Position numbers and translations under genes: made by a program. From a virus (lineage: Duplodnaviria; Caudoviricetes): 30,590 nt of DNA. Under the pieces are notes generated by a model. That model was not told the origin of the DNA. It saw only the letters and a list, made by a program, of their open reading frames with translations, and made no database searches. Every line of letters starts with the position of its first letter. The first letter of the stretch is position 1. The stretch covers positions 1-30,590 of the IMG/VR virus record IMGVR_UViG_3300032277_000052; one strand, given 5' to 3'. Positions 11,132 through 29,858 of the stretch are shown here, in pieces.

Positions 11132-11352
11132 TGTTGTATTACATTTCAATTTCAATTTTAGTTGTTTTGTTCATTGCGTTTGCAATTCATTTTGTAAATT
11201 TCCAAAAAACTCGTTGCCGTTACTCGGAGTCTGGTTCTGATGCTCACGACTGGAGTTTCTGGGAAACAAAATGGGACAAAATGATTCAGCACCGTTATTG
11301 TGAATGTTGCAATTTAGTTGAGGTTAAGAAACTTGATGGAAAAACAAAATAA
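11131..11352 (+). CDS. Small membrane-anchored protein with possible Zn site
   Basis: Hydrophobic N-terminus, then C...HDW..W...RYCECC; TGATG coupling with the upstream gene. Confidence 0.7.
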   Translation: MLYYISISILVVLFIAFAIHFVNFQKTRCRYSESGSDAHDWSFWETKWDKMIQHRYCECCNLVEVKKLDGKTK

Positions 11353-13597: not shown

Positions 13598-13602
13598 TTA
13601 AA

Positions 13603-13788
13603 ATGAACTTTGAAATAACAGGTGGCGTTCCCGAAGGATACAAAGCGATTGGTTATCGAAAAGTAAAAAAGGGCGAACTGTATTTAGTTGTTGGTCGAGA
13701 AAGAAATTACTCAATGAAATGGCACTCTAACGTAGAAAGTTTTGTTGAAGTAGTAATTTTAGTAAAGAACAAACAGGAATTGGAATGA
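13603..13788 (+). CDS. Hypothetical protein (61 aa)
   Basis: ATG 13603 avoids overlap with the upstream gene; VPEGYKAIGYRKVKKGE; ATGA overlap with the next gene. Confidence 0.65.
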   Translation: MNFEITGGVPEGYKAIGYRKVKKGELYLVVGRERNYSMKWHSNVESFVEVVILVKNKQELE

Positions 13789-14489
13789 TTTGTTACGTTG
13801 CTGCCAATGCAAACATGCTTTTGGGTTATCTTGCCGGTAAGCATGAAGGTAAAATAGGAATGATGGTTTCTCCGGCCACAAACTGGTACAAACAGCACTC
13901 ATTTATTCCTTATTCAATTGATAACGGAATTTATGCAGATACGGTTGCGGGTCGAAAATGGGAATTTGAACCTTTTTTAAAATTGCTTTATAAAGCAAAA
14001 GAATCTCCAGTTGATCCTGAGTTTATAGTAGTTCCAGATGAGTTATTTGACGCTAAAAAGACAAAGGAAAAGTTCAAATATTACAGTGAACATATCAAAA
14101 ATCTTGGTTTTAAATTTCGCTTGGCAATGGCAGTCCAGGATGGCATGACTCCGAACGACATTCCGTCTAAAGATGTTGTTGCATTCATTGGAGGTTCAAC
14201 AAAATTCAAACAAGAAAAAACTGCCGATTTTATTAAAGCTGGATTTGACGTTCATGTAGGGCGTGTAAATACTTTAAAAAGATTATTATGGGCAAAGCAA
14301 CTTGGTTGCGTTTCGGTTGATGGTTCTGGTTGGTTTAGATGTGGAGGAATTGAAAATCAAAATCAACGACCACAAAGAGTAGACGGTTTGATTGATTTTT
14401 TACAATGGCAAGAAAATCCTGTGTATGAAACAAATTTGTTTCAAGAAAAAATACCCTTTATAGGAAAGAAAAATGATCCCAGAAATTAA
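13785..14489 (+). CDS. DpdA/TGT-like (7-deazaguanine transglycosylase-type) TIM-barrel protein
   Basis: Ordered motifs DNGIY, VVPD, AVQDG, FIGGS, VHVGRVN and SVDGSGW parallel the TGT/DpdA motifs DSG.F, D, Q.G, GG, H.LG and S.DS. Confidence 0.7.
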   Translation: MICYVAANANMLLGYLAGKHEGKIGMMVSPATNWYKQHSFIPYSIDNGIYADTVAGRKWEFEPFLKLLYKAKESPVDPEFIVVPDELFDAKKTKEKFKYYSEHIKNLGFKFRLAMAVQDGMTPNDIPSKDVVAFIGGSTKFKQEKTADFIKAGFDVHVGRVNTLKRLLWAKQLGCVSVDGSGWFRCGGIENQNQRPQRVDGLIDFLQWQENPVYETNLFQEKIPFIGKKNDPRN

Positions 14490-14763
14490 ATTAGAACGAC
14501 GAGTCCATTGGAATTATCAAACTGATGATATGAATGGAATTTGCATAATTGCAAAAGACAAGATGACAATTAATTTTAAATTTGAAGCGTTTACTAAAGA
14601 AATTTATGACGTTTTGAAAATAGATAAAGTCATACAGGCTCTTTTAGAAAACCCAGTTTCCGTTGAGGGTTCTCAAGAATTTTTAAAAAATAAATTCCCT
14701 ACAATGGTCGTAACTGTAAGAGGCAGAGCAGTAAGTCACGGGTGGATCGAGGCTAAAAGTTAA
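14473..14763 (+). CDS. Small putative T-fold (QueF-like) protein
   Basis: C-x4-D, then SVE and a C-terminal beta-strand with HG.IE, loosely resembling single-domain QueF-L; overlaps the DpdA-like gene. Confidence 0.4.
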   Translation: MIPEIKLERRVHWNYQTDDMNGICIIAKDKMTINFKFEAFTKEIYDVLKIDKVIQALLENPVSVEGSQEFLKNKFPTMVVTVRGRAVSHGWIEAKS

Positions 14764-15054
14764 ATGGGAAGAAAAAAAATTTGTGACAATTTGGCGATAA
14801 AATTTCAAAATCATTGGAATAAATCAAGCAACACAAAAGAAGTTGCTGAAAAAATGGAAATGACAATTCTTGAAGTTAAGAGAATGGCGTATTCATTGCG
14901 GCGAAGAAAAATAATTTTAAATAATTTTAAAACCACACCTTATAAACTGGCAAATAAAACAATTGACCCAACGCCCGAAGAAATAAAAATTAGGGCCGAG
15001 CAAATAAGAGAAACATGGAAAAAGAAAATTAAGCCGGTTGACGATAAATGCTAA
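14764..15054 (+). CDS. HTH-like protein with PTPEEI..IR..W motif (paralog of 13223-13597)
   Basis: NTKEVAEKMEMTILEVKRMAYSLRR and DPTPEEIKIRAEQIRETW. Confidence 0.75.
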   Translation: MGRKKICDNLAIKFQNHWNKSSNTKEVAEKMEMTILEVKRMAYSLRRRKIILNNFKTTPYKLANKTIDPTPEEIKIRAEQIRETWKKKIKPVDDKC

Positions 15055-18000
15055 CTCCGTCAGGTCGGAATATTCTGTCTCCATTCGACCGCAAGTAAGT
15101 CGGTTTCAGTCCGATCTGAGTGACTTTAATGTCGTCAAGCAAACCACCTACGCCATCACCTTGAATTGATTGAAATTTCAATCTGGTCGTTGAACTTGAT
15201 GGTGCATCAAACGACAATTCAATTGTTTCCCAGACAGTCTCTGTGTTGTTAGTTCCGTCAGTTGCCATTGTGTGGACAAGTGATCCGTCCCAGTAAATGT
15301 CTATTTGGTTGTCAAGTTGGCTTACAGCAGGTCTTGGTGAATAAAACAAACTGATCGAATAGGTGTTGGCAGGGTTTGTTGTCAAGTCAACCCAGATCGC
15401 ATTAGTACCATCAAGCTCGCCATGCTTAACGCCCTGCGCTGCCGGACCGATGCCAACAATGTTGTTTTGTATCTCAAATGCAACTGTTGAATCAAATCCA
15501 CCAGGATTCTCATAGAGTCTCCATTGACCGGCAGGACAATCTAAATCTTCCCAGTTTTCGATAAAGATTATTGTGTCGTCAGATATTTCGTCAAAGAATC
15601 CAGTCAAGAAATCTGTGTCATGAGCGTAAAACCTATCGTCATAATTAGTTGCTTGCATCGAAACAACGTAACTGTCTTTTGGATCGATCTCTTTAACAAG
15701 AAAAGCACTCGGTCTTACACGAGAATTTTTTACAATTTGGTAAGTTGTTCGGGCATATCGATCAGCATCTAAAACCAGAGGTAACCTTGGAGGCGATCCG
15801 ACAGTAACATGCGTAGTGTCATTTACCGCACCGACATCTAAACTTTCGACGCTACCGTCAAAGTGCTGAATAAAGATCGTGTAATCCTCTCCCGAATCAG
15901 GCACAAACGGTTGCGACAATTCAAGAGTTACGCCATTTTGAGAAACAATGTTGCCATCGTTTGTATCTGGGCGAGTGTTGTCGGCAATAAGAATTCTGTC
16001 ATTAAGAGTCAATATTGCTGCCTCGGCAGTTGAATCAAACTCGACTGCCACATTTTGGTATTGAATTTTTTGCCATTCTCGCCAAGCGTGCATGTGAGCT
16101 TGTATTTCGCTTGTGATACCCACAATCTCGATCTTCTTTGGATTGCTTGCTGAACCGTCATAAGGAATTTGGTAAGTCTCTGTAGCCCCGTCAGAGGTGT
16201 CAGTCCAATCAAACTCAACCCCATCGTGATTGTCACTTGTTCCAAACCTTATGTTTCTAACTTCGGAACCAGGGATTTTATTTCTGTGGTTAAAAAGCAA
16301 TTTAGACAAATCAGTTTTTTGCTCAAAATTTAGCTTTAGCTTGCTACCTTGCCGGTAGGGAGTTGAAAACATTGAGTTTGCAACTGCAATTATCATTTCT
16401 TCAGCAGACAAATCTTTGTTGTCAAAAGTGTGATTAAAAAACACACACTGAGGTGTACCAAAGTAAGTTCGGTTTAAACTCGATGCTGTAAACATACTGT
16501 CGTAATCAAGATCACTTTCTTGCATGTTGCCAAGAGTTGGATCAAGTGCAATGTGACGAATGATTAAAGTTGCATCACTGTTTGTTTCGTTGAAATTAGT
16601 AAAATCATATTTTGTGTCTGGGATTCGACTTGGTATTTTTCGCCAAGCCAAGCAATTAAGTTTTCGTTGCTTAACTGCCAAAGCACCTGCGGTCGCTGGG
16701 GTTCTGACCATGATGGTTGTGACATCACCAAAAGTTTGGTTTTCAACATACTCAAGACCGTAGAGATCACGCCATTGAACTTCGTCAACAAACCTTGTGT
16801 CTTTTTCATCAAAGGTTGGGGTCACCCTTCTCGCTCTTACTTCCCACAGTTTATCTTTTGCGTTTGCAACACTTGTGTTACCTGTTAATTCATGCCAAGA
16901 CGACTCGGATCGAGAGTTTTGCAATACGTCAGAACCTTCAATGAATCTTCTGGTAGTTTGCTTAGTTCCGAGAATCTCCTGACCTTCGGAATTTACCTGC
17001 TTCATTTCAGTTTCGATTTCAACTGTAATTGCGCTTTGTTCTTCGCCATCGTCTTTATACATTCCATTTACGGCAATGTAGTTTGCAAGAATGATCCAAG
17101 GACTTTTAACAGTAAACGGGCCGACCCATTTTTCTTCGTCCGAACTTAGGTTGGCATTTGAATAATCAGTGTTGAAATTTCCGTTCCATTCACTGTTAAT
17201 CAATCCTGGATTTATTAAAACAATGGAATTGTTAGAAACTTGAAATATTTCGTAAACTCCGTCTAAGTTTTTAGAACCCTCACCTGTATTTAAACCAGTT
17301 TGAGAATTAGCAATCGTTATTTTATCACCAACGGCAAAATAACTTTCAAAATTTGTATCTTGGTTGTTAGTGACGATTTGATCTGGACCGTTAAAAGCAA
17401 TATCTTCATCACCTTCAATCAATGTTGCATCTGGCGCACGCAAAATCTGTCCGTTTGCAGCGTTTGACTTTACGGCACTCCAAACTCTTTCATCAATTGC
17501 ACGACCAATTGACTGCTGGATTGTCTTGCCAGGTTTATTTGGCGATTCGTATGGGCCGTACACTTCGACCGAAACCGCAGCAATGTCCTCAATTGGAGTC
17601 TGGTCGTCTTTTATGTCATGAATCCTAAACTCGCCACGACCAACACACATGTAGCTATACTCAACCTCTTGGTTAGCCTCGAAACGAAAGTACGGCTTTG
17701 CGATAAGATCAGGTACTGCACGAACCTCACCGTAAATGTCAGGAACCCTTTCATTTGGTCTAGCCTTGTTGACTCGCTCAGAAAGACCGTTGTTAGGTGA
17801 CTGGTCGCCCGTATTTCGCTCCACAGGCGGTTTTGGACGTAAAAGGTAACTAAGCAGTCCCAATAGAAGAACTTTGAGCAGCGAGCCGAATACGCCCGTC
17901 AGACCGAACAGGAAGAACTGTGGGTAAACCACACAGAAGATGTCACCTTCTAATTCTCGGAGTTGCTCCATTGAATGAACAATGTCACCTGCAACCGGAG

Positions 18001-18169
18001 TGACATCAGTCTTTGTCGAAACACTCCCATGATAAAGTCTTGAGTTATCTGGAAAATGACCTTCGAAATGGTCGTACAGCGAATCAATTACATTGTCAGT
18101 TTCAATGTAAACATTTTCTTCGCGGTCTAAAACATTAGGTATTACTGTGAGTTGTACTTTGTGTTGCAT
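15029..18169 (-). CDS. Tail tip / host specificity protein J-like (central hub) with C-terminal carbohydrate-binding-like domain
   Basis: SPNNGLSERVNKARPNERVPDIYGEVRAVPDL, LFNHRNKIPGSE and ATNYDDRFY segments typical of siphophage J-like proteins; last gene of the tail operon. Confidence 0.9.
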   Translation of the reverse strand: MQHKVQLTVIPNVLDREENVYIETDNVIDSLYDHFEGHFPDNSRLYHGSVSTKTDVTPVAGDIVHSMEQLRELEGDIFCVVYPQFFLFGLTGVFGSLLKVLLLGLLSYLLRPKPPVERNTGDQSPNNGLSERVNKARPNERVPDIYGEVRAVPDLIAKPYFRFEANQEVEYSYMCVGRGEFRIHDIKDDQTPIEDIAAVSVEVYGPYESPNKPGKTIQQSIGRAIDERVWSAVKSNAANGQILRAPDATLIEGDEDIAFNGPDQIVTNNQDTNFESYFAVGDKITIANSQTGLNTGEGSKNLDGVYEIFQVSNNSIVLINPGLINSEWNGNFNTDYSNANLSSDEEKWVGPFTVKSPWIILANYIAVNGMYKDDGEEQSAITVEIETEMKQVNSEGQEILGTKQTTRRFIEGSDVLQNSRSESSWHELTGNTSVANAKDKLWEVRARRVTPTFDEKDTRFVDEVQWRDLYGLEYVENQTFGDVTTIMVRTPATAGALAVKQRKLNCLAWRKIPSRIPDTKYDFTNFNETNSDATLIIRHIALDPTLGNMQESDLDYDSMFTASSLNRTYFGTPQCVFFNHTFDNKDLSAEEMIIAVANSMFSTPYRQGSKLKLNFEQKTDLSKLLFNHRNKIPGSEVRNIRFGTSDNHDGVEFDWTDTSDGATETYQIPYDGSASNPKKIEIVGITSEIQAHMHAWREWQKIQYQNVAVEFDSTAEAAILTLNDRILIADNTRPDTNDGNIVSQNGVTLELSQPFVPDSGEDYTIFIQHFDGSVESLDVGAVNDTTHVTVGSPPRLPLVLDADRYARTTYQIVKNSRVRPSAFLVKEIDPKDSYVVSMQATNYDDRFYAHDTDFLTGFFDEISDDTIIFIENWEDLDCPAGQWRLYENPGGFDSTVAFEIQNNIVGIGPAAQGVKHGELDGTNAIWVDLTTNPANTYSISLFYSPRPAVSQLDNQIDIYWDGSLVHTMATDGTNNTETVWETIELSFDAPSSSTTRLKFQSIQGDGVGGLLDDIKVTQIGLKPTYLRSNGDRIFRPDGVSIYRQPA

Positions 18170-18522
18170 AGGTAATACTTCACGCTTTCAAAAGTTGATA
18201 AAACATAAGACAAGTTTTGAAGTTCTGGGCCTGTCTCAGTCATGTGGAATACCATTCCTTGCATGAACACTCCAACATGAGGAGGGTCACCTTTTCTCGC
18301 AAACAAAGCTATGCAGGGATCAACAGGATTTTCTAATTTCCACAATCCTTTCCGACTTGTCATTGCATCGGAAAGACTGTTTGAGTTCCAAGCAGATACC
18401 ATATCACAGATGTCTTGATGCTCCAAAAACATCCACAGGTCGCGAACAAAATGCGAGCAATTGTAATTTAATCGGTCGTATTTTTTGAAATGGAAATCAT
18501 CAAGTTCTGTTTCGCCTGACAT
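18142..18522 (-). CDS. NlpC/P60-like tail tip assembly protein
   Basis: YNCSHFV (catalytic-type Cys) and HVGVF..G.VFH; position between the minor tail gene and J. Confidence 0.8.
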   Translation of the reverse strand: MSGETELDDFHFKKYDRLNYNCSHFVRDLWMFLEHQDICDMVSAWNSNSLSDAMTSRKGLWKLENPVDPCIALFARKGDPPHVGVFMQGMVFHMTETGPELQNLSYVLSTFESVKYYLCNTKYNSQ

Positions 18523-19025
18523 TACAGGAACCCTCTGAGCATTGGAAATTGATTCAAAGTGTAAAGCCTGCCAGTCGAACTCTGGTTTTGATAAGGTGCG
18601 ACAGCGTCAAACTGTGCGCCATCTTTGTTAAATGCAAGCTCGTTGACCTCAAGAGTTAATGGTCCGTGAATCGGTTTAGACAAATCGTCAGAACGATAAC
18701 CTCTCATCTTGCAGACAGGTTTTGTATCGAACCCGTTGTTTGCAGCAACCAAGTCTAGCTCAAGTTGTAAGTTGCCACCAAGATCGCCAAACTCAATCTG
18801 CAATCCGTAATCAAGATCGCCAATGCTTCCATTCTTTGTGATCTTTAGCGGATAGTAAACGTAAGTGTAATCAATCGAATCTTCGTGAGTGACTGTAACT
18901 CCGGCAGTAATATTTCTGACAACTCGATGAGTCTGAGAAAAATCAGGATGCGAAAGTTCAATGCACTCAACCAATACAATTGAGGACTTTGAATTTAAAA
19001 AGAATTTTTCGTAATCTCTAGTCAT
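18522..19025 (-). CDS. DUF1833-like minor tail protein
   Basis: ECIELSHPDF, YRSDDLSKP and TGRLYTLNQFPMLRGF; synteny. Confidence 0.82.
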   Translation of the reverse strand: MTRDYEKFFLNSKSSIVLVECIELSHPDFSQTHRVVRNITAGVTVTHEDSIDYTYVYYPLKITKNGSIGDLDYGLQIEFGDLGGNLQLELDLVAANNGFDTKPVCKMRGYRSDDLSKPIHGPLTLEVNELAFNKDGAQFDAVAPYQNQSSTGRLYTLNQFPMLRGFL

Positions 19026-19762
19026 TATGGAGGCGGCGCGTTATTGACTTGAACTGACCAGGTAAACTCTTGAGTTGCAAATCCCGTAGGTCCAGTTGCA
19101 ATGATTGTCGCAAATAAGGATGTGGGAGTTTGCGTAATTGTACCACTAATCAAACCTGTGCTTGAATTGATTGTTAATCCAGCAGGCAGATAAGTTGCAG
19201 AATAAACAATGCCTGCTGAGTCAGGATCGCTAAAGTAGCTTGAAGTTGCAAAACTTACAACATCTGACTGGATGTTGCTTTGACTCGCAATTGTTCCCAC
19301 AGATTGCGGTGGCGAATCTGTCGGAACTGTTATTTGCGACAGGTCTGTATTTGGATCGGCCTCATACGCAGCAACTCTTGCCGCATTCAAAGCATCGTCA
19401 ATCGGAACAGGGATTGCTTCGAGTTGACCAGTGACTTGGTAAGAATGTCCGGTTTGCCCAGATAGTTTTTTGCTATCCTGAATAAAGTGAACCTGATGCA
19501 ACACTGGAATCGGGTCGTCTAAGATTAAATAAATCTTGAACGACAAAGAACCTTCGTCAATTGTTGTGTTGTAGAAAGAAGTGAAATAAAGGTATTCGTT
19601 TCGATCAAAAGTCCACCGGACATCGACAACTCTGGCACTTCCGATTTTGTCTTTTCGAAACCTACTTTGACCACCGTCAAGCTGAACTCCCACAAAGCTC
19701 ATACCATCTGCAACGGCATAAGAAGCACTCTCAGGATTAATCTTAAATGTTGACAATGACAT
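19025..19762 (-). CDS. Distal tail-like minor tail protein with appended Ig-like (He_PIG-type) domain
   Basis: VQLDGGQSRFR N-terminal domain downstream of the tape measure gene; C-terminal YSATYLPAGLTINSSTGLISGT. Confidence 0.8.
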   Translation of the reverse strand: MSLSTFKINPESASYAVADGMSFVGVQLDGGQSRFRKDKIGSARVVDVRWTFDRNEYLYFTSFYNTTIDEGSLSFKIYLILDDPIPVLHQVHFIQDSKKLSGQTGHSYQVTGQLEAIPVPIDDALNAARVAAYEADPNTDLSQITVPTDSPPQSVGTIASQSNIQSDVVSFATSSYFSDPDSAGIVYSATYLPAGLTINSSTGLISGTITQTPTSLFATIIATGPTGFATQEFTWSVQVNNAPPP

Positions 19763-20143
19763 TTAGCGTTTCCTTCTAGTATAAGTTGATTGCCCCAGTG
19801 CTTTTGATTCGCGACTATTGGCGTTTCGAAGGTTTGCAGAAATTAGCTTTGGAGTCTGCTCTGCAATTTGTTGGCGAGCAATTTCTCGAATCGTAAGTTC
19901 GAGTTCACCGTTCTTGTTTCTTTCCACAGAAACATTTGAATCGGTGTAGTTGTTGACGTTGACCATAACACCACCACCAGCGGTCGATCCCGTTTTCAAT
20001 GTTCCATTTCTCATGGCATCTAGTGTTGATCTGTATTTCGCTGTTTGCGATGCAGGCATAACGTATTCTTGCCCGTGGACAAAACCTGCGAATGAGTTCG
20101 TTGATACACCACCTGTGTACCCGCCAGAGGCAAAACCTGCCCC
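19763..20143 (-). CDS. C-terminal domain of the tape measure protein, in frame with 20159-23482 but beyond two TGA codons
   Basis: Reads GAGFASGGYTGGVSTNSFAGFVHGQEYVMPASQT...VNVNNY...; the conserved motif lies upstream of the track's ATG at 20059, which has no evident SD. Confidence 0.85.
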   Translation of the reverse strand, partial: GAGFASGGYTGGVSTNSFAGFVHGQEYVMPASQTAKYRSTLDAMRNGTLKTGSTAGGGVMVNVNNYTDSNVSVERNKNGELELTIREIARQQIAEQTPKLISANLRNANSRESKALGQSTYTRRKR

Positions 20144-20158
20144 TCAGCCACCCGCGCC

Positions 20159-23100
20159 TCACAAGCCACCTGCTCCAAAACCGCCTCCACCACCTCCAAT
20201 TGAAGGAACAGCACCTCCCCCAGCAAAGTTCATCATTCCACCAAGAAAACCGCCACCCCCTCCCAACATGCCCTGGAACAATTGTTGGAACAATTTGTTC
20301 ATGAACAACTTGAGAAGGTCAGCAAGAATGGATCGCATCAATTCTTTAAAACTTAGCTTTCCAGTTCTAACAAAGTTTTGAAATGCGTTTGAAAGATTAC
20401 TAAAAACAGATTGCAAGGCACTTGCTTGCTCTGTCATTTGAGGCAAGCCGCTATTTTCTAGCGGACCTTGACCTCCGCTTTCGCCTGGAGCTTTTGATAT
20501 TCCTTGTCTAAGAGAATCTCCAATATTTTTCATCATACTTTGGATTTTTGCAGCAGTAGAAACAAGCGACTCTTTTAAAGATTCTAATGCTGATTTCAAT
20601 GCTGGATTTTCAATCCTACTCAATAAATTGTCAAACATTGAATTAGCAGAATTTGAAAGGATATTAATTCCTTGATTAACAATATCAATAGCTCCAGCAA
20701 AAGATAAAAACTTATCTTTTAAAGCAGAGTTAATAACCGTAGTTTCAAATAATAAAAACGACTCTCTGGATTTTTCTAAAAAGTCTGTGGTTCCCTTTCC
20801 AATGTTTTGGAAAAATTTAAAAGCTACAGGAGCAGATATTTGCTGAGTTTCGACTGCAACTGTTCTTGCTTCTTCTAATCTACTCCTAAGTTGTGCAGCA
20901 ATTTCTGCTGTTTCTTTTAATCTTTCTGCCCTTCTTTCGTCTGCTCTGAGCTTTTCTTCCTCGCTGAATTCTTCTAAATACCTGTTATGTTGATTTCTAT
21001 AATTTTCAATGTCTGCCCCAATTCTCATCTCTCTTGGTAAAAATGCTATTTTTTTATTAGCAAATTCACGAAGATTCATAACTTCTTTTTCATCAGAACC
21101 AAAAATCATGTTTTTCGTTATATCTCTCATTCCGATCATCACATTTGCAATGACCGCTGAAAGTTTAGATGCAATATCAATTGATGTTATAAGTAGCTGA
21201 TTCCCAATTAAAGCAGGTAAATCGGCAAGTAATTTTAAAAAGTTTTTACCTGCTCGACCTAATGCTGAATCAAGTTCCGATTCAATTTCAAGACCTACGC
21301 CACTATAATCGGCTGTTATTAGCTTAGAAACTGCATTTCCAATTCCGGCAACAACACCAACAACAACTAGCAGTATTTCTTTTACTAAACCTAAAACTTC
21401 TTTTAAAACTTCAGTAATTCCACCCAAAGTTTTTGTGGGTAAAAAAATTGAAAAGAAGTCCTCACTTATAGTTGTAAGAAATTTAAAAACCTTATCAAAA
21501 TGAAAGGCAACTGAATTGATAACTTCGGTCAAAGTTAAAAATACATTTCCCCCAAGGTCAATAAGTTTTATTTGATCTCCCATGTAAACAATTCTTGCAA
21601 CAATAAGACCAATGATTCCTGGTATCAAAGCAAGGTTACCAACGCCAGAAACTATTAAAGCAAAAAATCCACCGATTATTGAAGCGGCCCCACTTGCGGC
21701 TAATCCTGCCGCGAGCGATCTCATCGACCTTAATATGTAATCAAGGTTGTTTCCAATATCGTCTAAAATTTTTGCAAGTTTTTCAGTAAACTTAGTTCTT
21801 TTGTCAAACTGACCAAACAGATAAATTAGTTTGTTTGTAAGCTGAGTAAAGGATTGACCAATTGTTCGACCCGATGATGCCATTAACCTATCAATTGGTT
21901 TTTCAAGCGATTGAAACGCTTTTATTAAAACGTCAACAGTGATCTCACCGTCTTTTGACATTTTAAATAATTCTTTTCTTGACCGACCTGTAGCCCTTGC
22001 AATTGCATCAAGAATTTGTGGCATCAATTCAGCAACGGACCTAAACTCATCACCGTCTAGTTTGCCTTTGTTAAAGGCTTGGCTTAACTGCAACAATGCT
22101 GACGCAGATTCATTTGCAGAAGCACCGTTTAAAGCAAGCATTTTTCCAATTGTTTCGGTAATCCTAAGACTACCTTTTTGACCCATGCCTGTCTTTGATA
22201 GAGCGTTGTCATATCTACGATATGCAATTGTTAAATCGGCAATTGGAACTCTTGCTCTTTGTGCAACTCCAAATAATTCTTCTGTAACTTGATTCAATTG
22301 AGCAGAACTATTGGTAGTACCTCGCAATTGGTTTTGAATTCTTTTAAATGAATCAATTCCTTTTAATGCTCCACCTGCACCAACTAAAGCACCGAGAGAA
22401 ACATAACTTCTCAAGCTACTTACCATGCCACCAATAGCACCTCGATTGCCCACTGCTGCGGCCTTCATTCGCCTAATGTTTGCGACCATCCTGGTTACAC
22501 TTATATTTGCTCTTTTAGTGGCAGTGTCAAACCGCTGAGTTGCTGCGGTATTTCTATTATAAGCCCCTGTTAATTTTGCTTTGGCAATTGCTAAATCAAC
22601 AGTAGCTTTTTTTGCTAATGTTTGTGTTTTGGAAAGTTTTGCTAGAGAGGTTTGTCTTTTTATTTCTTCTTTGCTTAATTTTGAAGTGAAAGTGGCAGTC
22701 ACATTTGAACTTTGCGCCATCCCAACCATCGCCGCGCGTAGCCTGTTTTGAGATGCTGCTGCACCAAGACCTTCTTTTTGTAACTTTGCTTCTTGGACTG
22801 TAAGCGTGTTTAAGTTTTTATTTAAACTAACAGTAGAACTGGCAGCAGCGTTTGTTGCAGTCGTTACTTGTTTTTGAGATTTAGCTACGTTTTGAGTAGA
22901 GCTTACTACTGCATTTGCACTTATCGCTAACGAGTTTTGCTTTATCTGCAAATCGATTGTTGACATCTTTACTTTTTCATTCGACATTTTTAAGTCGTTG
23001 TTTGAAATAGCAAGTCTGTTTATTGCAAGTTGAGATTTAATTTGCTTGGCAGTTAAATCGCTCGTTGATATAGCAGTGACATTAGTAACTTTATTTAAGT

Positions 23101-23482
23101 TTTTTAATGACATTGATTGCGAGGTAGTGGCCGCAGCTTTTGCCATTCCCTCCTTAGCCATTTTCTGTTCTTGAATGCGCAAACTATTTAAACTTTTTTG
23201 ATAATTGTTTGTAACAATTTGAGTTTGCATTTGAGATTGCTTTAATCTTTCGATTGCGATCTCTAATTTTTTTGCTTCTGTAGCAGTTCGCTTCATCTGC
23301 TGCGCTACAGAACCAAGACCCACCCCGCTAAGACCTGAGAAATCTAAACCTTGCCAGGCTTTTTTAAACGCCGCCAATGCTGGGGCCGCAGCTTTTGCGC
23401 TTTCACCAATTGCCAACAACTTCGGAGCAATTTTATTTCCGATTCTGTCTTTAATTTGTATTGAAACTTCTGTGTTTGCCAT
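20159..23482 (-). CDS. Tail tape measure protein (1107 aa to the first TGA; 1239 aa if both TGAs are read through)
   Basis: LFGVAQRAR...ALLQLSQAFNKGKLDGDEFRSVAE tape-measure domain, long helical Ala/Lys-rich sequence, hydrophobic segments, position after the chaperones. Confidence 0.95.
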   Translation of the reverse strand: MANTEVSIQIKDRIGNKIAPKLLAIGESAKAAAPALAAFKKAWQGLDFSGLSGVGLGSVAQQMKRTATEAKKLEIAIERLKQSQMQTQIVTNNYQKSLNSLRIQEQKMAKEGMAKAAATTSQSMSLKNLNKVTNVTAISTSDLTAKQIKSQLAINRLAISNNDLKMSNEKVKMSTIDLQIKQNSLAISANAVVSSTQNVAKSQKQVTTATNAAASSTVSLNKNLNTLTVQEAKLQKEGLGAAASQNRLRAAMVGMAQSSNVTATFTSKLSKEEIKRQTSLAKLSKTQTLAKKATVDLAIAKAKLTGAYNRNTAATQRFDTATKRANISVTRMVANIRRMKAAAVGNRGAIGGMVSSLRSYVSLGALVGAGGALKGIDSFKRIQNQLRGTTNSSAQLNQVTEELFGVAQRARVPIADLTIAYRRYDNALSKTGMGQKGSLRITETIGKMLALNGASANESASALLQLSQAFNKGKLDGDEFRSVAELMPQILDAIARATGRSRKELFKMSKDGEITVDVLIKAFQSLEKPIDRLMASSGRTIGQSFTQLTNKLIYLFGQFDKRTKFTEKLAKILDDIGNNLDYILRSMRSLAAGLAASGAASIIGGFFALIVSGVGNLALIPGIIGLIVARIVYMGDQIKLIDLGGNVFLTLTEVINSVAFHFDKVFKFLTTISEDFFSIFLPTKTLGGITEVLKEVLGLVKEILLVVVGVVAGIGNAVSKLITADYSGVGLEIESELDSALGRAGKNFLKLLADLPALIGNQLLITSIDIASKLSAVIANVMIGMRDITKNMIFGSDEKEVMNLREFANKKIAFLPREMRIGADIENYRNQHNRYLEEFSEEEKLRADERRAERLKETAEIAAQLRSRLEEARTVAVETQQISAPVAFKFFQNIGKGTTDFLEKSRESFLLFETTVINSALKDKFLSFAGAIDIVNQGINILSNSANSMFDNLLSRIENPALKSALESLKESLVSTAAKIQSMMKNIGDSLRQGISKAPGESGGQGPLENSGLPQMTEQASALQSVFSNLSNAFQNFVRTGKLSFKELMRSILADLLKLFMNKLFQQLFQGMLGGGGGFLGGMMNFAGGGAVPSIGGGGGGFGAGGL

Positions 23483-23490
23483 TTATTTTC

Positions 23491-23940
23491 TCACCTAAAG
23501 TATTTCAACCTTGCTCCGGTTTCTTGCTTTGCTCGATATTCTCCGACTTTTTCAGCAATTGGTATAAGATTATCTTTAATGTTTAAATAATCTTCTACAT
23601 AGTCTAAGTTGTTAGAAACAAAGATCGGATCAAGTGGCTTTGCACTTTTTAAATTTGGAAGTTCTCGACGTACACCAAGTTGGAATGACTGCGGTTTAGT
23701 TGAACCTTTTTCACCTGGGAAATAAGCCTCTCTTTCTAAACTTTGATCATTTGGAGTTCTTATTTTCCAGTTTGAAATAGCTTTTGATGTGTCAACAGTT
23801 GTTTTTTGCATCATTCTAAGAAAAATGTAACCGGCAACATCTTTCTTAATTTCATTCAAATCTTCTTCTATTGATTTAGATGCAAAATTTGCTTGTGTAC
23901 CAAATTTTTCCAACTGATCTAATCCGGTTATTTCAATCAT
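23491..23940 (-). CDS. HK97 gp10-like tail completion/neck protein
   Basis: TTVDTSKAISNW and IFVSNNLDY motifs. Confidence 0.72.
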   Translation of the reverse strand: MIEITGLDQLEKFGTQANFASKSIEEDLNEIKKDVAGYIFLRMMQKTTVDTSKAISNWKIRTPNDQSLEREAYFPGEKGSTKPQSFQLGVRRELPNLKSAKPLDPIFVSNNLDYVEDYLNIKDNLIPIAEKVGEYRAKQETGARLKYFR

Positions 23941-24272
23941 GATTTCATTTTCTTTTTGTTTTCTGATGAAACATGTTCAAGAAAAATATTGTCCATCGCT
24001 CTTATAAAAAACAACAAATCATTTTCTTCTTCTTGATCAAAATCGTAATAATTTGCAAAATTTAAAATTGCCATTGTGGGGATCGGACCCATTTCATGAA
24101 GTCGATCCGCTGTCAATTTAAAAAATATGTCAACATAAAAAACGAGTCCGTCATTTAATTCAGGACTCGTCATTGCTTTATTGTCGTCTAAACCTGCTCT
24201 CTTTAACTGTCGCTGGAGGGTGGAGGCATTTGAGCCTCCGAACTCCAACTGGTACTTGAGGAAGGCACAGAG
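23937..24272 (-). CDS. Tail assembly chaperone GT, -1 frameshifted C-terminal part
   Basis: The -1 frame after the slippery site reads LCAFLKYQLEFGGSN...GPIP..AI..FA..Y...FIRAMD. Confidence 0.85.
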   Translation of the reverse strand, partial: LCAFLKYQLEFGGSNASTLQRQLKRAGLDDNKAMTSPELNDGLVFYVDIFFKLTADRLHEMGPIPTMAILNFANYYDFDQEEENDLLFFIRAMDNIFLEHVSSENKKKMKS

Positions 24273-24703
24273 TTTTTTGCTGCATCGTCCTCATCTTTTT
24301 CAGATGGCATTCCAAAGTTGTTTGGGTCACTTGCCTCTGTTGAAATAAACTCGTAAAGGTCTGGAAAATTTTCCATTAAAGCAAAAGCATTTTCTTCATT
24401 AAATGGAATCAACTCACCTTCGTCGTTATAAGCATTTTTCCAATCAACCAAAATTATTCTGCAAAACGCTTTCATCGCAATTCTAGTTTGCACTTCGTAA
24501 GAAAGCTCACCTGATTGCCTGCGATAAGGCTTGGTTAACTTTGTTACGCATTTTGCGTAGTCTGGATTTGAAGCAATTTTTAGGTAACGAACTTTTAATT
24601 GGAACGCTTCGTCCCCATCAAATTCGTCACAATTGATCCAAACTCCGTCATCAACTTTTGATTTATCCCGACCCCATTTTGAAGCAATACTTTTCTTAGA
24701 CAT
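24203..24703 (-). CDS. Tail assembly chaperone G
   Basis: Follows the tail tube gene; DGVW, ILVDWK and FPDLYE motifs; GAGG SD. Confidence 0.88.
   Translation of the reverse strand: MSKKSIASKWGRDKSKVDDGVWINCDEFDGDEAFQLKVRYLKIASNPDYAKCVTKLTKPYRRQSGELSYEVQTRIAMKAFCRIILVDWKNAYNDEGELIPFNEENAFALMENFPDLYEFISTEASDPNNFGMPSEKDEDDAAKNSVPSSSTSWSSEAQMPPPSSDS
24272..24278 (-). other. -1 programmed ribosomal frameshift slippery heptamer A AAA AAC
   Basis: GCA AAA AAC in the G frame; a -1 shift joins the downstream ORF, as in lambda G/GT. Confidence 0.88.
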
Positions 24704-24723
24704 AATTTCCTCTTTGGATGATT

Positions 24724-24770
24724 AAAAAAAACGGATGATTTAGCCTCGATGGTTAACTGTCCATCGAGAC
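24724..24770 (-). terminator. Hairpin enclosing the tail tube stop codon, with downstream T8
   Basis: Minus strand GTCTCGATGG-ACAGTTAA-CCATCGAGGC, then 11 nt, then T8. Confidence 0.5.
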
Positions 24771-26711
24771 TGTTGGTAGGTAAGCAAACCAGGTTGACAA
24801 CAATGTGTAACCTGCTTCGTTTTCTGCTGCCATTGTTTCCAAGGGAAGCATGATGGCAGAGTCTTTTTCGACTTCAAGTCGTCCACCACCAAGACTTAGC
24901 AATGGAATGTCAAAGACAAATCCAGCGTTGTCCAGAGCAGTAATGACATTAAAGCCAACATCTGCATTTGCCCGAACTGCTTCAACAGCAGCAACCGTAG
25001 CAAAATAAACATTCAATGTGCCAGAAACTTCAAAGTCACCGACATTCAAATCCATTGAGCCTAAAGTTCCGATAGCCTTGAGTCCATCTACGTTGTTGTT
25101 GATGGTCAACTCACCATCCATCACAAACGCAAATAGCGAGTCAGGGGTGATTGCATCGTCATCGTGGACATAGAGTCGAGTTTGATAAATGTGGCTCGTA
25201 GTGTTGAATGCACTTTCCACAGGCATTGTCACTCGCGTACCATTTTTTAGACCTGTCGATCCATTTCGAGTTTCAGTGTCCAATGCGGTAAAACTGACAT
25301 CTGCGTTGAGTTTTTCAACACTTGGGATGTTTAGCTTAAACTCATTGGCAACTGCACCAATAAGGTATTGCGACTGAGTTCCAAAAGCATCCTGACCAAG
25401 TTGCCGTTCAAGCTGGTAGCTTTGGCATTTAATCAGTGTTGGGTCTTTTTCGTTGCGAATGACTGTACCGAGATAAATTTGCAACTGCCTGCCAGTACCA
25501 CTGTCAATTTGTGGAGTTGCCCAAGAACATTGCTCAAGACTTAAAGTTGAACCGTCTGTTGCAACGGCAGCAACTCTTGCAAAGCCTGGAGCGTTGCTAA
25601 CAAGCCGGTTAATGATTGCATCGCCACCAACGTGAATCCATTCGCCAACTTGCACTCCAAGCTCGACAAACTTATTTGCGGCACTTGCCATGATAAATTT
25701 ATTACCAGTCACAGTAACGCTAACATCAGACGCTGCAAACTCGTAGCCCACAATCTCTAACTTTGCTCCGGCAGGTGCAGTTTCAGTTGTGAAAGTTGCA
25801 GCAGAACAAACAAGACTTCCTGAAGATTTGCTTGTCACTTCAAAAACGCCGTTGTTAGCAGCATTTGCAAAACCCGAAAGTTTTACAAGACTTCCAACGT
25901 AAAATTCTGCTTCATCGCCAGCACCAATCGTAATGGCAGTGCTTGCAACGCTTGTCAAAGTAACTGAGTCTGCTGCTGACTTGATTGAACTGTTTGTAGC
26001 TCGCTCATGTGCTTTAGCAAAAAAGAAACCTTGCATTAGCCGCTGAAGGTTTGTTTGAGTAATGTCAGTGTTGAAACCACCATCGGCAGTAACATCAGTA
26101 ACAACACCTTTCTTTTGCTGTCGAGAAGCATTGATTGGTGAACGAGCAACCGTCTCAATTTCCGACCCCAAAGAATCGTAACTGTTTGGCTCAAGCTCGT
26201 ACCATTTCGCAACTCCTGTCCCAAGAGTTGTAACTGTCAAAACTCTGGATGCAGGAGGACTGCTGAAACTTGAATCAATGTCAAATTCAACTGTAAATGA
26301 GTCACCATCTGCAACAGACGGTATGTAAGCAACCGCAATCAGATCGGTATCCCCAGTTTCTCCAGCACCTGCCCATTGAGCAATGTCAGTACCTGTAGGA
26401 TCAGAACCGACAAATGTTCCTGGCGAGTTAATTGAAACAAGTTCACCAACCACTCCGACTACGCTTCCAGCTTGTGTGATTCTTGCAACTGCTGCTGTTT
26501 CGCCAGCATCAATTGTTCCAGTGATTGTAATTCGACGAGTAACGTCATCCCAAGCAATTGAAATTGCACTGAACTCACCGCTGGTAGTGGTTGTGCCTCC
26601 AGGTGCGTCATCGACACCGACAGTTCCGTCAGGCAAAATTTTCAAAGCGACTTCTTCGGCATAAGCCAAACCTGTCACGTTGCTACTTAAACTGTTTTCA
26701 CCGCAACCCAT
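24753..26711 (-). CDS. Major tail (tube) protein with accessory domains
   Basis: SNVTGLAYAEE...WYELEPNSY...VARSPINASRQ..KG..TD and C-terminal G.LNVYF...FDIPLLSLGGGRL; synteny. Confidence 0.9.
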   Translation of the reverse strand: MGCGENSLSSNVTGLAYAEEVALKILPDGTVGVDDAPGGTTTTSGEFSAISIAWDDVTRRITITGTIDAGETAAVARITQAGSVVGVVGELVSINSPGTFVGSDPTGTDIAQWAGAGETGDTDLIAVAYIPSVADGDSFTVEFDIDSSFSSPPASRVLTVTTLGTGVAKWYELEPNSYDSLGSEIETVARSPINASRQQKKGVVTDVTADGGFNTDITQTNLQRLMQGFFFAKAHERATNSSIKSAADSVTLTSVASTAITIGAGDEAEFYVGSLVKLSGFANAANNGVFEVTSKSSGSLVCSAATFTTETAPAGAKLEIVGYEFAASDVSVTVTGNKFIMASAANKFVELGVQVGEWIHVGGDAIINRLVSNAPGFARVAAVATDGSTLSLEQCSWATPQIDSGTGRQLQIYLGTVIRNEKDPTLIKCQSYQLERQLGQDAFGTQSQYLIGAVANEFKLNIPSVEKLNADVSFTALDTETRNGSTGLKNGTRVTMPVESAFNTTSHIYQTRLYVHDDDAITPDSLFAFVMDGELTINNNVDGLKAIGTLGSMDLNVGDFEVSGTLNVYFATVAAVEAVRANADVGFNVITALDNAGFVFDIPLLSLGGGRLEVEKDSAIMLPLETMAAENEAGYTLLSTWFAYLPTVSMDS

Positions 26712-26724
26712 ATCTTCACCTCTT

Positions 26725-27258
26725 TTAGATTAATTCATCGTATTGATAGTCCACAAAAACGTCCGTCCTAAAAAACTTTTCCGTTGGTGACAAATCTGCA
26801 AAATATGCGTTTCTGTACCAAACAGGATTGTTTACTAAATTTCTAGGACGAAAAATGTCGCGGGCAATCACTGAAAGCCTACGATGATCTCCCGCAAAAG
26901 CCGCTTTTGCGAAAAATATCTGGATAATTATAAAACCGTTAGTCGTATATTTTGCTTTTCTACAACCTGTAGTGCCGCTTCTAAACGCAGATTGACCACT
27001 ACCTAGCATTTCATCACTGAATCTTAGGCAATGCTTTGAATGATCAATCGGAAAATCTGTTTCAACATTGTGCCAATGAATTTGAGGAATGTAAGACGCT
27101 CCCCCGCCAGCTTGCTTTAAAACAACCGGAGTCTTTCTAGCACCGCTGGTATCACGTATATCAACAGGTTCTCCGTTTGTAATCCAATCAACCCAATCAG
27201 AATAAAAACGAGTTCTCATTGAATCTGAGGCACTTTCATAAGTTGCTGGCTCACTCAT
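26725..27258 (-). CDS. Tail terminator-like protein
   Basis: G.IIIQIF, VWYRNA and V.VDYQYDE pattern; directly upstream of the tail tube gene. Confidence 0.75.
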   Translation of the reverse strand: MSEPATYESASDSMRTRFYSDWVDWITNGEPVDIRDTSGARKTPVVLKQAGGGASYIPQIHWHNVETDFPIDHSKHCLRFSDEMLGSGQSAFRSGTTGCRKAKYTTNGFIIIQIFFAKAAFAGDHRRLSVIARDIFRPRNLVNNPVWYRNAYFADLSPTEKFFRTDVFVDYQYDELI

Positions 27259-27641
27259 TACGAACCCAATTCAAATTTAAACAATAAATCGACACCACCA
27301 GGATTTAATGGAGAAATATTGTCAATTGTAAGCAATTGACTTCCTCTTACCACAACATCTTTTGCTTTTGGAAAAACTCCAGGCACTACTGCCATATACC
27401 CATTGATTTGACCGCTAACAACTTCAGTGTCTTTAAGGTATTTAATCTCTTGATGACCATCCATCCCATCAGGAATAAATACAATTTTTACTGTGTGATC
27501 AACTCCAGGTACTTCGGCAGGCATCCAAGGTTTATTGTTATCTGGCAATGTCCCAGAATCCATTACTCGAAGAATAGCAGTTTCGCCGTAATTCGCGATC
27601 AGTCTTTTTACAGTGCTTTGCAATCTTGAATAAAAAGTCAT
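27258..27641 (-). CDS. Head closure / head-tail joining protein
   Basis: Y.RL..T..RLIANYG, KPW and PLNPGG..LLF pattern; synteny. Confidence 0.75.
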   Translation of the reverse strand: MTFYSRLQSTVKRLIANYGETAILRVMDSGTLPDNNKPWMPAEVPGVDHTVKIVFIPDGMDGHQEIKYLKDTEVVSGQINGYMAVVPGVFPKAKDVVVRGSQLLTIDNISPLNPGGVDLLFKFELGS

Positions 27642-27642
27642 C

Positions 27643-28173
27643 TTAAACCCTAATTGTATTTAAGAAATAACCATTTGCACCATCACTAAACAATGACGCA
27701 AGTAAGACTTCAACCGCTGCAAAAGTAACGCCCCTGTATTTGCTTCCTGCCGACTTTTCTTCTGAATACTTGACCGTAATTGGACCTACTGTTTCCTGCG
27801 TAACCTGACCTCCAACAGAAGCATCGGGAAGTGGGAATAAAACTGTCCCAGCGTGTTGCTCAATGCAAAGTTGTGCTTGCGCTTGTTTTAAAACCTCTGG
27901 TATTGAATCTTTGCCAACAGTAACCACTTTGTCCATGACCAAATCGGTACGTGGAAATTGCAAAGATTGAGTAGTGTTGGTTTTGTAACCGCCGTACTCA
28001 AAACGTCGAGATTCAAGATAATCAGTGGCAGCAATAATTTGCTGACCTAATGTGGCATCTCGGTTAGAAACAACAGCACCTCTGTTGTCCGCATAGGTTC
28101 TTACATACGCCAAATCAACATAGCAATTTGCATTTGCAACATTTGATCCGTCCTCAATGATTAAAGTTGGCAT
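27643..28173 (-). CDS. Head-tail adaptor (often annotated DnaT-like)
   Basis: LIIEDGSNVANANCY, ATDYLE, QSLQFPR, IPEVLKQAQ and ETVGPITVKY motifs. Confidence 0.85.
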   Translation of the reverse strand: MPTLIIEDGSNVANANCYVDLAYVRTYADNRGAVVSNRDATLGQQIIAATDYLESRRFEYGGYKTNTTQSLQFPRTDLVMDKVVTVGKDSIPEVLKQAQAQLCIEQHAGTVLFPLPDASVGGQVTQETVGPITVKYSEEKSAGSKYRGVTFAAVEVLLASLFSDGANGYFLNTIRV

Positions 28174-28278
28174 TTAAGATTCCTGATTTAAACTTGCCCT
28201 GACGTAAATCATCCAGAAACCGCCAGAGCAAGCCTCGCCAATCAAGCGATTCCGTTCACCCGTGATAACTGACGAAGT

Positions 28279-28692
28279 TTATTCGTTGTAGTAACTCATT
28301 ATGTGGTTGACTAAATTCTGTCTCGATTTTAGTTTTGCTTCATTTCGTTTTGCCCATAAATTCTTTTCATGCGCCAAAACCACCTGATTTGTAACATCAC
28401 TAGAAACATCGTAAGCATTTTTTGGAGCTTGTTTTTTTGGCTCAACTGTACTTGGAGTTTCTTCAACTTCTTGCCGCATCACCGTAATTATTTGAAATCG
28501 CGGGTCAGAATCATTTAATGGATACCAATTTGAGCTTTGAGGTAGCTCATGTTGACCACAAGTTGATTCAAACCAAACACTCAATTGCTCCGCACTTCTC
28601 AAAAAACCTGACTGATCGAAATACTGACTTTTGCCAGATTCATCGATTGCATGTAATTGATAAACACCCTGTTGAAATTCTGTTTCTGACAT
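28279..28692 (-). CDS. Hypothetical protein downstream of the major capsid gene
   Basis: 137-aa ORF with GAGGT SD. Confidence 0.75.
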   Translation of the reverse strand: MSETEFQQGVYQLHAIDESGKSQYFDQSGFLRSAEQLSVWFESTCGQHELPQSSNWYPLNDSDPRFQIITVMRQEVEETPSTVEPKKQAPKNAYDVSSDVTNQVVLAHEKNLWAKRNEAKLKSRQNLVNHIMSYYNE

Positions 28693-28713
28693 TTTTACCT
28701 CTTAGATGATTTT

Positions 28714-28765
28714 AAAAAAACGGGATCAACACATTGCCAAAACTGTGAAAAACAATGCTCCCCCG
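28714..28765 (-). terminator. Long imperfect hairpin plus T7 after the major capsid gene
   Basis: Minus strand CGGGG..GCATTG...CAATGT..TCCCG followed by TTTTTTT. Confidence 0.55.
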
Positions 28766-28791
28766 ATTTTAGTTTGTTTTGCCTAAAGCAT

Positions 28792-29835: not shown

Positions 29836-29858
29836 TGAAAATCCTCAATTGGTTATGG

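What the first reader, a model, noticed from the sequence alone, without database searches (positions are those of the whole stretch)
19763..20226. Tape measure gene crosses two in-frame UGA codons: candidate site-specific recoding in a virion protein
Seen: the minus strand reads ...GGT GGC TTG TGA GGC GCG GGT GGC TGA GGG GCA GGT TTT GCC TCT GGC GGG TAC ACA GGT... = GFGAGGL*GAGG*GAGFASGGYTGGVSTNSFAGFVHGQEYVMPA, then stays open in the same frame to TAA at 19763 abutting the next gene. The TGAs are at 20159-20161 and 20144-20146, and the GAGG repeat continues through both. Known: FAxGGYTG...G.VH..E.V is a conserved tape-measure C-terminal motif and the protein is essential. The motif falls between the stops and the next ATG, so separate initiation at that ATG would lose it. 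TGA is otherwise a normal stop here (TGATG/ATGA couplings at 3147, 11131, 13788 and 23937; stop at 23491) and TGG and GGA are used freely, arguing against genome-wide code 4 or 25. Inference: local double readthrough (Sec, Cys or Trp) giving a 1239-aa protein, possibly as regulated long and short forms. Two independent sequencing errors that both produce TGA seem unlikely.
Basis: partly seen in the sequence, partly recalled or inferred. Interest (0 to 1): 0.9.

Follow-up and report, generated by a model that had tools for sequence, protein, structure and literature searches.

The report
Double selenocysteine in phage tape measure
Two TGA 'stop' codons inside the tail-length gene of this marine phage are real and shared by most close relatives examined, and they are likely read as the rare amino acid selenocysteine by the host's machinery, which would make a virus-particle protein a selenoprotein.

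Summary
Both in-frame TGAs (20159-61, 20144-46) are real. Contigs from other studies carry them, and 8 of 12 related loci covering the site have exactly two TGAs (U-x4-U or UU) in otherwise unlike glycine-rich linkers. None has TAA, TAG or TGG there. The genome otherwise uses code 11, and no tRNA was found. A 7-bp hairpin with an AGGUG loop lies 29 nt after the second TGA. It shows compensatory changes and nearly frozen synonymous sites, and its core matches the selD SECIS of Mariniblastus. That genus is rich in selenoproteins, and one of its MAGs holds a fully syntenic phage. Best reading (about 0.68): host SelB inserts selenocysteine at both codons. A second fold-back hairpin may bring the first UGA into range. 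Against: no cysteine homologues, only indirect host evidence, a first UGA beyond the usual spacing, TGA-free alleles that keep the hairpin, and no expression or protein data. The main rival is hairpin-aided Trp readthrough. My literature searches found no phage selenoprotein; unchecked notes from this scan report similar cases elsewhere.

The parts
19763..23482 (-). Tape measure protein gene, 1239 aa if both TGAs are decoded (1107 aa to the first TGA)
   Evidence: phrog_3336, E 3e-89
20159..20161 (-). First in-frame TGA (codon 1108), candidate Sec
20144..20146 (-). Second in-frame TGA (codon 1113), candidate Sec
20126..20144 (-). Fold-back hairpin 1 (AGGGGCA-GGUUU-UGCCUCU), predicted to form while the ribosome sits on the first UGA; its loop is 21 nt from that UGA
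20103..20121 (-). Candidate SECIS: GGUACAC-AGGUG-GUGUAUC, 7 bp; loop 29 nt after UGA2 and 44 nt after UGA1
20052..20089 (-). Third hairpin, paired in all 12 aligned loci with or without TGA; role unknown
20126..20190 (-). Swappable glycine-rich linker that carries the TGAs; replaced by other alleles in relatives
19763..20143 (-). Conserved 126-aa C-terminal domain (FASGGYTGG...VHGQEYVMP) that needs readthrough; next in-frame ATG at 20059 lies after the motif

Best explanation
The tape measure gene has two conserved in-frame UGA codons followed by a conserved GGU-loop hairpin, and the host's SelB/tRNA-Sec system likely inserts selenocysteine at both to give the 1239-aa protein. Shown: the codons, their conservation, code 11 elsewhere, the conserved hairpin and its match to Mariniblastus SECIS elements. 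Inferred: the host is a Sec-using planctomycete. The hairpin at 20103-20121 binds SelB. For the first UGA, a fold-back hairpin (UGA2-GGN pairing with GCCUC) shortens the effective spacer and then melts when the ribosome reaches the second UGA. Also inferred: failed insertion releases a 1107- or 1112-aa form, so the amount of full-length protein would depend on selenium. The two Sec residues most likely close a diselenide in the flexible linker just before the C-terminal domain; this last step is the most speculative.
For: (1) Two TGAs in 8 of 12 distinct clade loci covering the site, plus the X14 loose end: 18 of 18 internal stops are TGA, across six linker types. The same gene's terminal stop varies between TAA and TAG. 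(2) No TGG variant was seen at these positions although 448 Trp columns elsewhere are TGG. This fits a residue whose only codon is UGA. (3) The hairpin meets the published bacterial SECIS model for UGA2: 5-nt loop, 7-bp stem, G at loop position 2, 23-29 nt spacing in 8 of 8 loci (model passages in PMC13188914). (4) The core CAC-AGGUG-GUG is identical to a selD SECIS 31 nt after the Sec codon in a genome of G004's genus; host SECIS-like loops lie 17-31 nt out. (5) Fourfold sites vary at 1 of 8 in the hairpin decade, against 26 of 33 later in the gene and 68 of 76 in the next gene (Fisher p 0.001 and 1e-5). Two of 7 pairs change on both sides. (6) Controls: synonymous shuffling gives such a stem 3-4% of the time, and 0 of 7 true TGA stops has one. 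Of 120 GYTG...VH motif loci, only the 2 with in-frame TGA have a stem over 3 bp in that register. (7) Host leads: a fully syntenic phage contig in a Mariniblastus MAG, and a planctomycete chromosomal prophage sharing a two-gene module with the complete relative G001. SelB is in 169 of 301 family genomes and tRNA-Sec in 34 of 41 genus genomes; 46 of 48 FdhA matches over the cut-off carry a TGA.
Against: There is no Cys in the 50 residues before the motif in any listed full-length homologue, whereas nearly all selenoproteins have Cys homologues (PMC13188914). UGA1 lies 38-44 nt from the main loop in the five U-x4-U alleles, beyond the 16-37 nt model and the 31 nt maximum in my host sample. Hairpin 1 passes my GGU-loop descriptor in only 2 of those 5. 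TGA-free alleles L014 and L021 keep a full 7-bp stem. The bare CAC-NGGTN-GTG core also occurs in 8 of 11 pattern hits, from three unrelated TGA-free tape measures. The low synonymous variation extends past the hairpin and may partly reflect recombination. The alleles are related, so the counts are not independent. My hairpin descriptor was written after seeing the hairpins and misses some host loops. No CRISPR spacer link was found, and the MAG contig may be mis-binned. Stop-free linkers are rich in Phe and Tyr, which would suit Trp.
Confidence: 0.68

Rival explanations
1. Leaky UGA readthrough by near-cognate tRNA-Trp (or tRNA-Cys), helped by the downstream hairpins, keeps full-length tape measure protein scarce or makes long and short forms.
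For: Trp fits an aromatic, glycine-rich linker; stop-free alleles have Phe and Tyr there, and distant L006/L007 have a TGG nearby. It needs neither Cys homologues nor SECIS spacing. Only UGA is seen, as UGA-specific misreading also predicts.
Against: Exactly two UGAs occur in all 9 alleles, never one or three. Two inefficient events in series would leave very little product (inference). No TGG revertant was seen. The hairpin has the loop and spacing of host SECIS elements.
Confidence: 0.17
2. The first TGA is a true stop, and the C-terminal domain is a separate protein started further down, mimicking the cleaved tape measures of T5 and lambda.
For: T5 and lambda tape measures are cut near the C-terminus, and the T5 piece stays in the tail (bioRxiv 10.1101/2022.09.20.507954 passages). 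TGAGG resembles a Shine-Dalgarno core (own knowledge).
Against: No in-frame ATG, GTG or TTG lies between UGA2 and the motif in any of the 8 loci, and the ATG at 20059 follows the motif. A true stop should drift to TAA, the commonest stop here (24 of 38). This reading does not explain a second conserved TGA or the preserved frame across linkers of different length.
Confidence: 0.07
3. SECIS-dependent insertion of Cys at UGA by a selC*-type tRNA (tRNA-ReC) of the host.
For: It uses the same cis signals. tRNA-ReC is enriched in genomes with UXXU hydrogenases (PMC13582414 passages).
Against: One tRNA-Sec match per genome in 34 of 41 genus genomes; I did not test for tRNA-ReC specifically. If Cys sufficed, TGC or TGT alleles should occur, and none was seen.
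Confidence: 0.04
4. Ribosomes hop over each stop from a GGC codon to the next GGN codon.
For: GGC precedes the last TGA or TGA pair, and GGN follows it, in all 9 alleles.
Against: The first TGA has unmatched flanks in the window and L005 (TTG/GGC) and in L001 (ACG/TCG). Hopping would work with TAA or TAG, which never occur.
Confidence: 0.03
5. Sequencing error or decay of a defective phage.
For: The window is a partial 30.6-kb contig, and only assembled contigs could be laid on it.
Against: Identical letters in X2 and X6 and conserved TGAs in divergent relatives. The downstream domain is under purifying selection. The other identified genes are intact.
Confidence: 0.01

Closest known systems
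Bacterial selenoprotein genes with an in-ORF SECIS bound by SelB (E. coli fdhF model; here selD, fdhA and Prx/Trx genes of G004's genus, Mariniblastus by the record title)
   Same: In-frame UGA in a code-11 genome, followed at 23-29 nt by a 7-bp stem with a GGU-containing loop; the 11-nt core is identical to a selD SECIS.
   Different: Phage virion structural gene rather than a redox enzyme; no Cys homologues; two UGAs with variable spacing in a swappable linker; first UGA up to 44 nt from the loop.
UXXU selenoproteins proposed to use one SECIS for two UGAs (group 4 [NiFeSe] hydrogenases, PMC13582414; passages read)
   Same: Two close UGAs upstream of a single conserved SECIS-like hairpin, with the hairpin persisting in UGA-free relatives.
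   Different: There the residues replace Cys of a fixed CXXC metal site. Here the spacing is UU or U-x4-U and no Cys form was found.
TGA-recoded (code 4) phages with suppressor tRNAs, e.g. Agate and Jade clades (Borges et al., bioRxiv 10.1101/2021.08.26.457843; passages read)
   Same: In-frame TGA in a structural gene of a phage whose host presumably uses the standard code.
   Different: Only one site in one gene; all other Trp columns avoid TGA; TGA remains a stop; no tRNA found in the window or in the complete TGA-free relative.
T5 pb2 and lambda gpH tape measure proteins processed near the C-terminus (bioRxiv 10.1101/2022.09.20.507954; passages read)
   Same: A boundary near the C-terminus that separates the body of the protein from a terminal domain.
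   Different: There the two pieces arise by proteolysis; here the boundary is marked by recoded stop codons.

Membership tests
Siphophage tape measure protein | Profile match and position between tail chaperones and distal tail genes | tested here: met
Bacterial selenoprotein | Conserved in-frame UGA with conserved coding sequence on both sides | tested here: met
   8 of 12 loci
Bacterial selenoprotein | SECIS with 3-9 nt loop, 4-16 bp stem, G in the first two loop positions, energy at or below -7.5 kcal/mol | tested here: met
   5-nt AGGUG loop, 7 bp; -9.1 to -12.3 kcal/mol downstream of UGA2 with the ribosome footprint blocked (model)
Bacterial selenoprotein | 16-37 nt from UGA to the loop, second UGA | tested here: met
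   23-29 nt in 8 of 8 loci
Bacterial selenoprotein | 16-37 nt from UGA to the loop, first UGA | tested here: inconclusive
   32 nt in 3 UU loci; 38-44 nt in 5 U-x4-U loci, 2 of which have a nearer GGU-loop hairpin at 19-21 nt
Bacterial selenoprotein | Cys at the aligned position in homologues | tested here: not met
   No Cys in the 50 aa before the motif in any listed full-length homologue or in 4 TGA-free clade loci
Bacterial selenoprotein | Host encodes SelB and tRNA-Sec | tested here: inconclusive
   Met for the candidate lineage (selA not searched), but the host link is indirect
Bacterial selenoprotein | Selenium incorporated in a SelB-dependent way | not testable with these tools
   Needs labelling or mass spectrometry
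Code 4 or code 25 recoded phage | In-frame TGA spread over many genes at Trp or Gly columns | tested here: not met
   448 Trp columns are TGG, TGA only at this site; TGA swaps with TAA/TAG at gene ends
Code 4 recoded phage | Phage-encoded suppressor tRNA | tested here: inconclusive
   None in the window, in 21 loci or in the complete TGA-free relative G001; no complete TGA-bearing genome was available
Stop-hopping | Matched take-off and landing codons around each stop | tested here: not met
   First TGA unmatched in the window, L001 and L005

The most novel reading that the evidence does not exclude
A widespread marine planctomycete phage clade builds a di-selenocysteine motif into its tail tape measure protein from a swappable cassette. 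The motif has no cysteine ancestor. One SECIS serves both UGAs through a fold-back spacer that melts as the ribosome advances. Full-length tail protein, and so phage yield, is gated by host selenium supply, with selenium-independent alleles kept in the population by recombination.
Probability: 0.35. Interest if true: 0.92.

Novelty: new variant of a known kind. Interest (0 to 1): 0.8.

Why it matters
A 2026 review of prokaryotic selenoproteins does not mention phages or viruses at all, and standard pipelines require cysteine homologues, so a case like this would be missed twice. Gene callers truncate the protein: 13 of 18 clade clusters end at the first stop. If confirmed, this is a selenium-containing virion protein and a natural test of how one bacterial SECIS decodes two UGAs at 23-44 nt. 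It would also link selenium supply to the yield of a marine phage. Near-identical phages with and without the cassette (L002 and L021) supply a built-in control.

Tried and rejected
Genome-wide code 4 or 25: rejected. Suppressor tRNA or Rfam RNA: none in the window, in 21 loci, or in 6 sources searched against Rfam. L015's record was not held for genome search, so no complete TGA-bearing genome was seen. No RNA holder was listed, which says nothing on expression. CRISPR link: 22 of 401 family genomes had short matches to window 10591-30590; none of 19 loci checked sat in an array. The rest of the window was not searched. The YTV-like G001 protein had no match in 151 family genomes; its Atlas hits were Planctomycetota clusters at 0.84-0.87, a lead only; cluster look-ups gave no organism names. 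The exact core pattern TGA-N15-44-CACAGGTRGTG gave 4 hits against 6 control hits in 3 host genomes, so it is not enriched genome-wide. A motif search for a second tRNA found nothing and was uninformative. A single-sequence fold of the C-terminal 245 aa had mean pLDDT 49.5 with the linker unresolved. The alignment-based fold had not finished, so no fold search was run. No solved-structure homologue of the last 126 aa was found (best E 0.32). No promoter-like site in 19600-20600. No Sec variant of the adaptor Cys17 in the loci or 42 homologues. I could not determine which residue stop-free ASPIC paralogues have at the DL*S site.

Full report
Observation. The window is a whole 30,590-nt virus contig of a siphophage, with replication genes mostly on the plus strand and a tail operon on the minus strand. 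The tape measure frame 23482->19763 holds two internal TGAs, at 20159-20161 and 20144-20146, in ...GFGAGGL*GAGG*GAGFASGGYTGGVSTNSFAGFVHGQEYVMP.... It closes at a TAA abutting the next gene; read through, it is 1239 aa. The 126 aa after the second TGA match the ends of tape-measure profiles, and the next in-frame ATG (20059) lies after the conserved motif.

The codons are real. Twenty-one runs from 16 studies hold the stretch or part of it; I laid 8 of them, all as contigs. X1 may be the source. X2 and X6, other studies of the same year and habitat, have 0 differences over the site. X3 covers it with 12 other letters; the 11 displayed lie downstream and one was not displayed. X8 and X11 replace 63 nt by 81, and X19 replaces 120 by 123, so the frame is kept but I could not see their letters. 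The loose end of X14 reads L-P-S-G-TGA-TGA-G-K-G.

The codons are conserved, but in a swappable cassette. Of 12 distinct clade loci covering the site (the window included; duplicates L013, L016 and L017 dropped; L022 and L023 do not cover it), 8 have exactly two TGAs: L*GAGG* (window, L005), T*SPFG* (L001), G*GPGG* (L002), G*GAGG* (L020) and LPGG** (L015, L018, L019). Four (L003, L004, L014, L021) have stop-free Gly/aromatic linkers without Cys or Trp. With X14, 18 of 18 internal stops are TGA. Among protein clusters, 13 of 18 clade members (the window's own included) end at the linker and 5 are full length; the codon behind most of these records is not visible. On a tree of the next gene the label needs 3 changes, no fewer than shuffled labels, and L002 (TGA) and L021 (none) are about 100% identical there. 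The linker therefore moves by recombination and is not essential to the lineage.

The genome uses code 11. In relatives, 448 columns aligned to window Trp are TGG, and TGA appears only at this site. TGA swaps with TAA or TAG at aligned ends of four genes, and the tape measure's own terminal stop is TAA or TAG. Other internal stops in that scan were single TAAs in L037 and L035, a TAG in L033, and stops in the over-extended start of ORF 13516. No tRNA was found in the window, in 21 loci or in the complete 48.5-kb TGA-free relative G001. No complete TGA-bearing genome was available.

A SECIS-like element follows. GGUACAC-AGGUG-GUGUAUC (20121-20103) has its loop 29 nt after UGA2, and 23-29 nt in the 8 loci. 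It meets the published bacterial model for loop, stem, G position, spacing and energy (PMC13188914 passages). Two of its 7 pairs change on both sides across 12 loci. Fourfold sites vary at 1 of 8 in this decade among TGA loci, against 26 of 33 further down and 68 of 76 in the next gene. Controls: 6 of 1249 TGA triplets of the window have a 7-bp GGU hairpin, and two of them are these codons. Synonymous shuffling of the same peptide gives one 3-4% of the time, and 0 of 7 true TGA stops has one. Against: the peptide predisposes the bare core, which also occurs in 8 of 11 hits from three unrelated TGA-free lineages. L014 and L021 keep the stem without TGA. Conservation runs on into a third hairpin in all 12 loci. 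My descriptor was written after seeing the hairpins.

The candidate host uses Sec. The only genome-collection hit was a 51.6-kb contig in a Mariniblastus MAG (Planctomycetota). It is syntenic with the window and G001 over about two dozen genes at 28-63% identity, but may be mis-binned. A chromosomal prophage in a genome of the same phylum shares a two-gene module with G001 (1 of 401 genomes), and a G001 protein resembles planctomycete clusters at lead level only. No spacer link was found. G004 has tRNA-Sec and SelB. SelB is in 169 of 301 family genomes and tRNA-Sec in 34 of 41 genus genomes. In that genus, 46 of 48 FdhA matches over the cut-off and 26 of 73 AhpC-TSA matches carry one TGA. The two Sec-type selD genes have CAC-AGGUG-GUG and CAC-AGGUA-GUG loops at 31 nt; fdhA has GGUCU at 18 nt in 13 of 14; 12 Prx/Trx genes have hairpins at 17-31 nt. 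A planctomycete genome paper lists UGA-containing ASPIC/FG-GAP genes whose closest hit has Gly (PMC4807772: passages, table S9 and a search of S2 Text). I found the same DL*S site in 11 loci. This is predicted precedent for Sec without an obvious Cys partner.

Mechanism. Shown: the codons, their conservation, the hairpins and the code. Inferred: SelB-GTP-Sec-tRNA bound to the AGGUG loop decodes UGA2 at normal spacing. UGA1 is 32 nt away in UU alleles but 38-44 nt in U-x4-U alleles. With the ribosome footprint blocked, all 5 of those fold GAGGN against GCCUC, and GCC-TCT is present in all 8 TGA loci and replaced by GCC-AAT in all 4 others. This fold-back could shorten the spacer for UGA1 and would melt for UGA2; shared ancestry could also explain the correlation. 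One SECIS for two UGAs has been proposed for UXXU hydrogenases (PMC13582414 passages). Sec insertion in E. coli is about 40% efficient, with the rest terminating (PMC7026636 passages), so two sites would give a minority of full-length chains plus 1107- and 1112-aa forms. T5 and lambda tape measures are cleaved near the C-terminus, so a boundary here has a parallel. The function of the Sec pair is unshown. A diselenide-closed loop before the terminal domain is my guess, and the fold prediction left this region unresolved.

Rivals. Near-cognate Trp readthrough (0.17) fits the aromatic linker and the lack of Cys, but not the strict pair of UGAs, the absence of TGG alleles or the host-type loop. 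A true stop with a separate C-terminal protein (0.07) lacks an in-frame start before the motif. tRNA-ReC Cys (0.04), hopping (0.03) and error or decay (0.01) fit worse.

Novelty. Five full-text searches on phage, tape measure, UGA, selenocysteine and SECIS terms (listings and abstract starts only) showed no report of a phage selenoprotein. The 2026 review has no occurrence of phage, virus or viral, and the BSepDB paper none of phage, viral or tape measure. The library lacks most subscription papers, and bioRxiv supplements were closed. The code-4 phage preprint does not mention selenocysteine. PMC8659212 and PMC1976440 were read as passages only. Unchecked notes from this scan describe single-UGA candidates in tape measure and other virion genes of other genomes. 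I did not test them and they are not support, but they suggest this is not a lone case. What sets this one apart is the double UGA, the absence of Cys forms and the swappable cassette. It works like a bacterial selenoprotein gene, but it fails the Cys-homologue criterion and membership is unproven. Verdict: real and conserved recoding site, probably Sec; interest 0.8.

Noticed in passing
window 28068-28090 (-), head-tail adaptor gene 27643-28173: An 8-9 bp hairpin with the same AGGUG loop lies 41 nt after a clade-specific Cys17 codon (mostly Ser or Thr in distant homologues). G001 and L004 keep it through two synonymous compensatory changes; L015 and L136 have lost it. No TGA variant was found. 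It may be a relic or incipient SECIS.
   Followed up: partly
L078, L080-L082, L086, L089, L093, L094, L096, L098, L101 (G004, G315, G324): ASPIC/UnbV FG-GAP proteins of G004's genus carry a conserved in-frame TGA in D-[LT]-*-S-x-x-W-R, often with a GGUC-loop hairpin at 17 nt. ASPIC and CRTAC1 do not occur in the 2026 selenoprotein review.
   Followed up: partly
G004, G315, G324, G328, G342: Large predicted selenoproteome: 26 of 73 AhpC-TSA matches carry one TGA.
   Followed up: partly
window 20052-20089 (-): A third hairpin is fully paired in all 12 clade loci with or without TGA; it may be a recombination anchor or a regulatory element.
   Followed up: partly
window 23937-24703 (-): Two overlapping ORFs match the N- and C-terminal parts of one tail assembly chaperone profile (phrog_8233), as expected for a G/GT-type programmed frameshift (the frameshift reading is from my own knowledge).
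   Followed up: no
L001:2861-3546 and L002:7479-8164: About 690 extra bases lie between the tape measure gene and the distal tail gene; they are absent in the window.
   Followed up: no
L034:1201-3270 (G001): A module of a signal-peptide YTV-like protein, an unknown protein and a papain-family peptidase lies upstream of the head genes; two of the genes recur in a planctomycete prophage (G811). It is a candidate lysis module.
   Followed up: partly
L037 (DNA polymerase) and L035 (homologue of window 18142-18522): Each has a single internal TAA, probably an error or a lesion.
   Followed up: no
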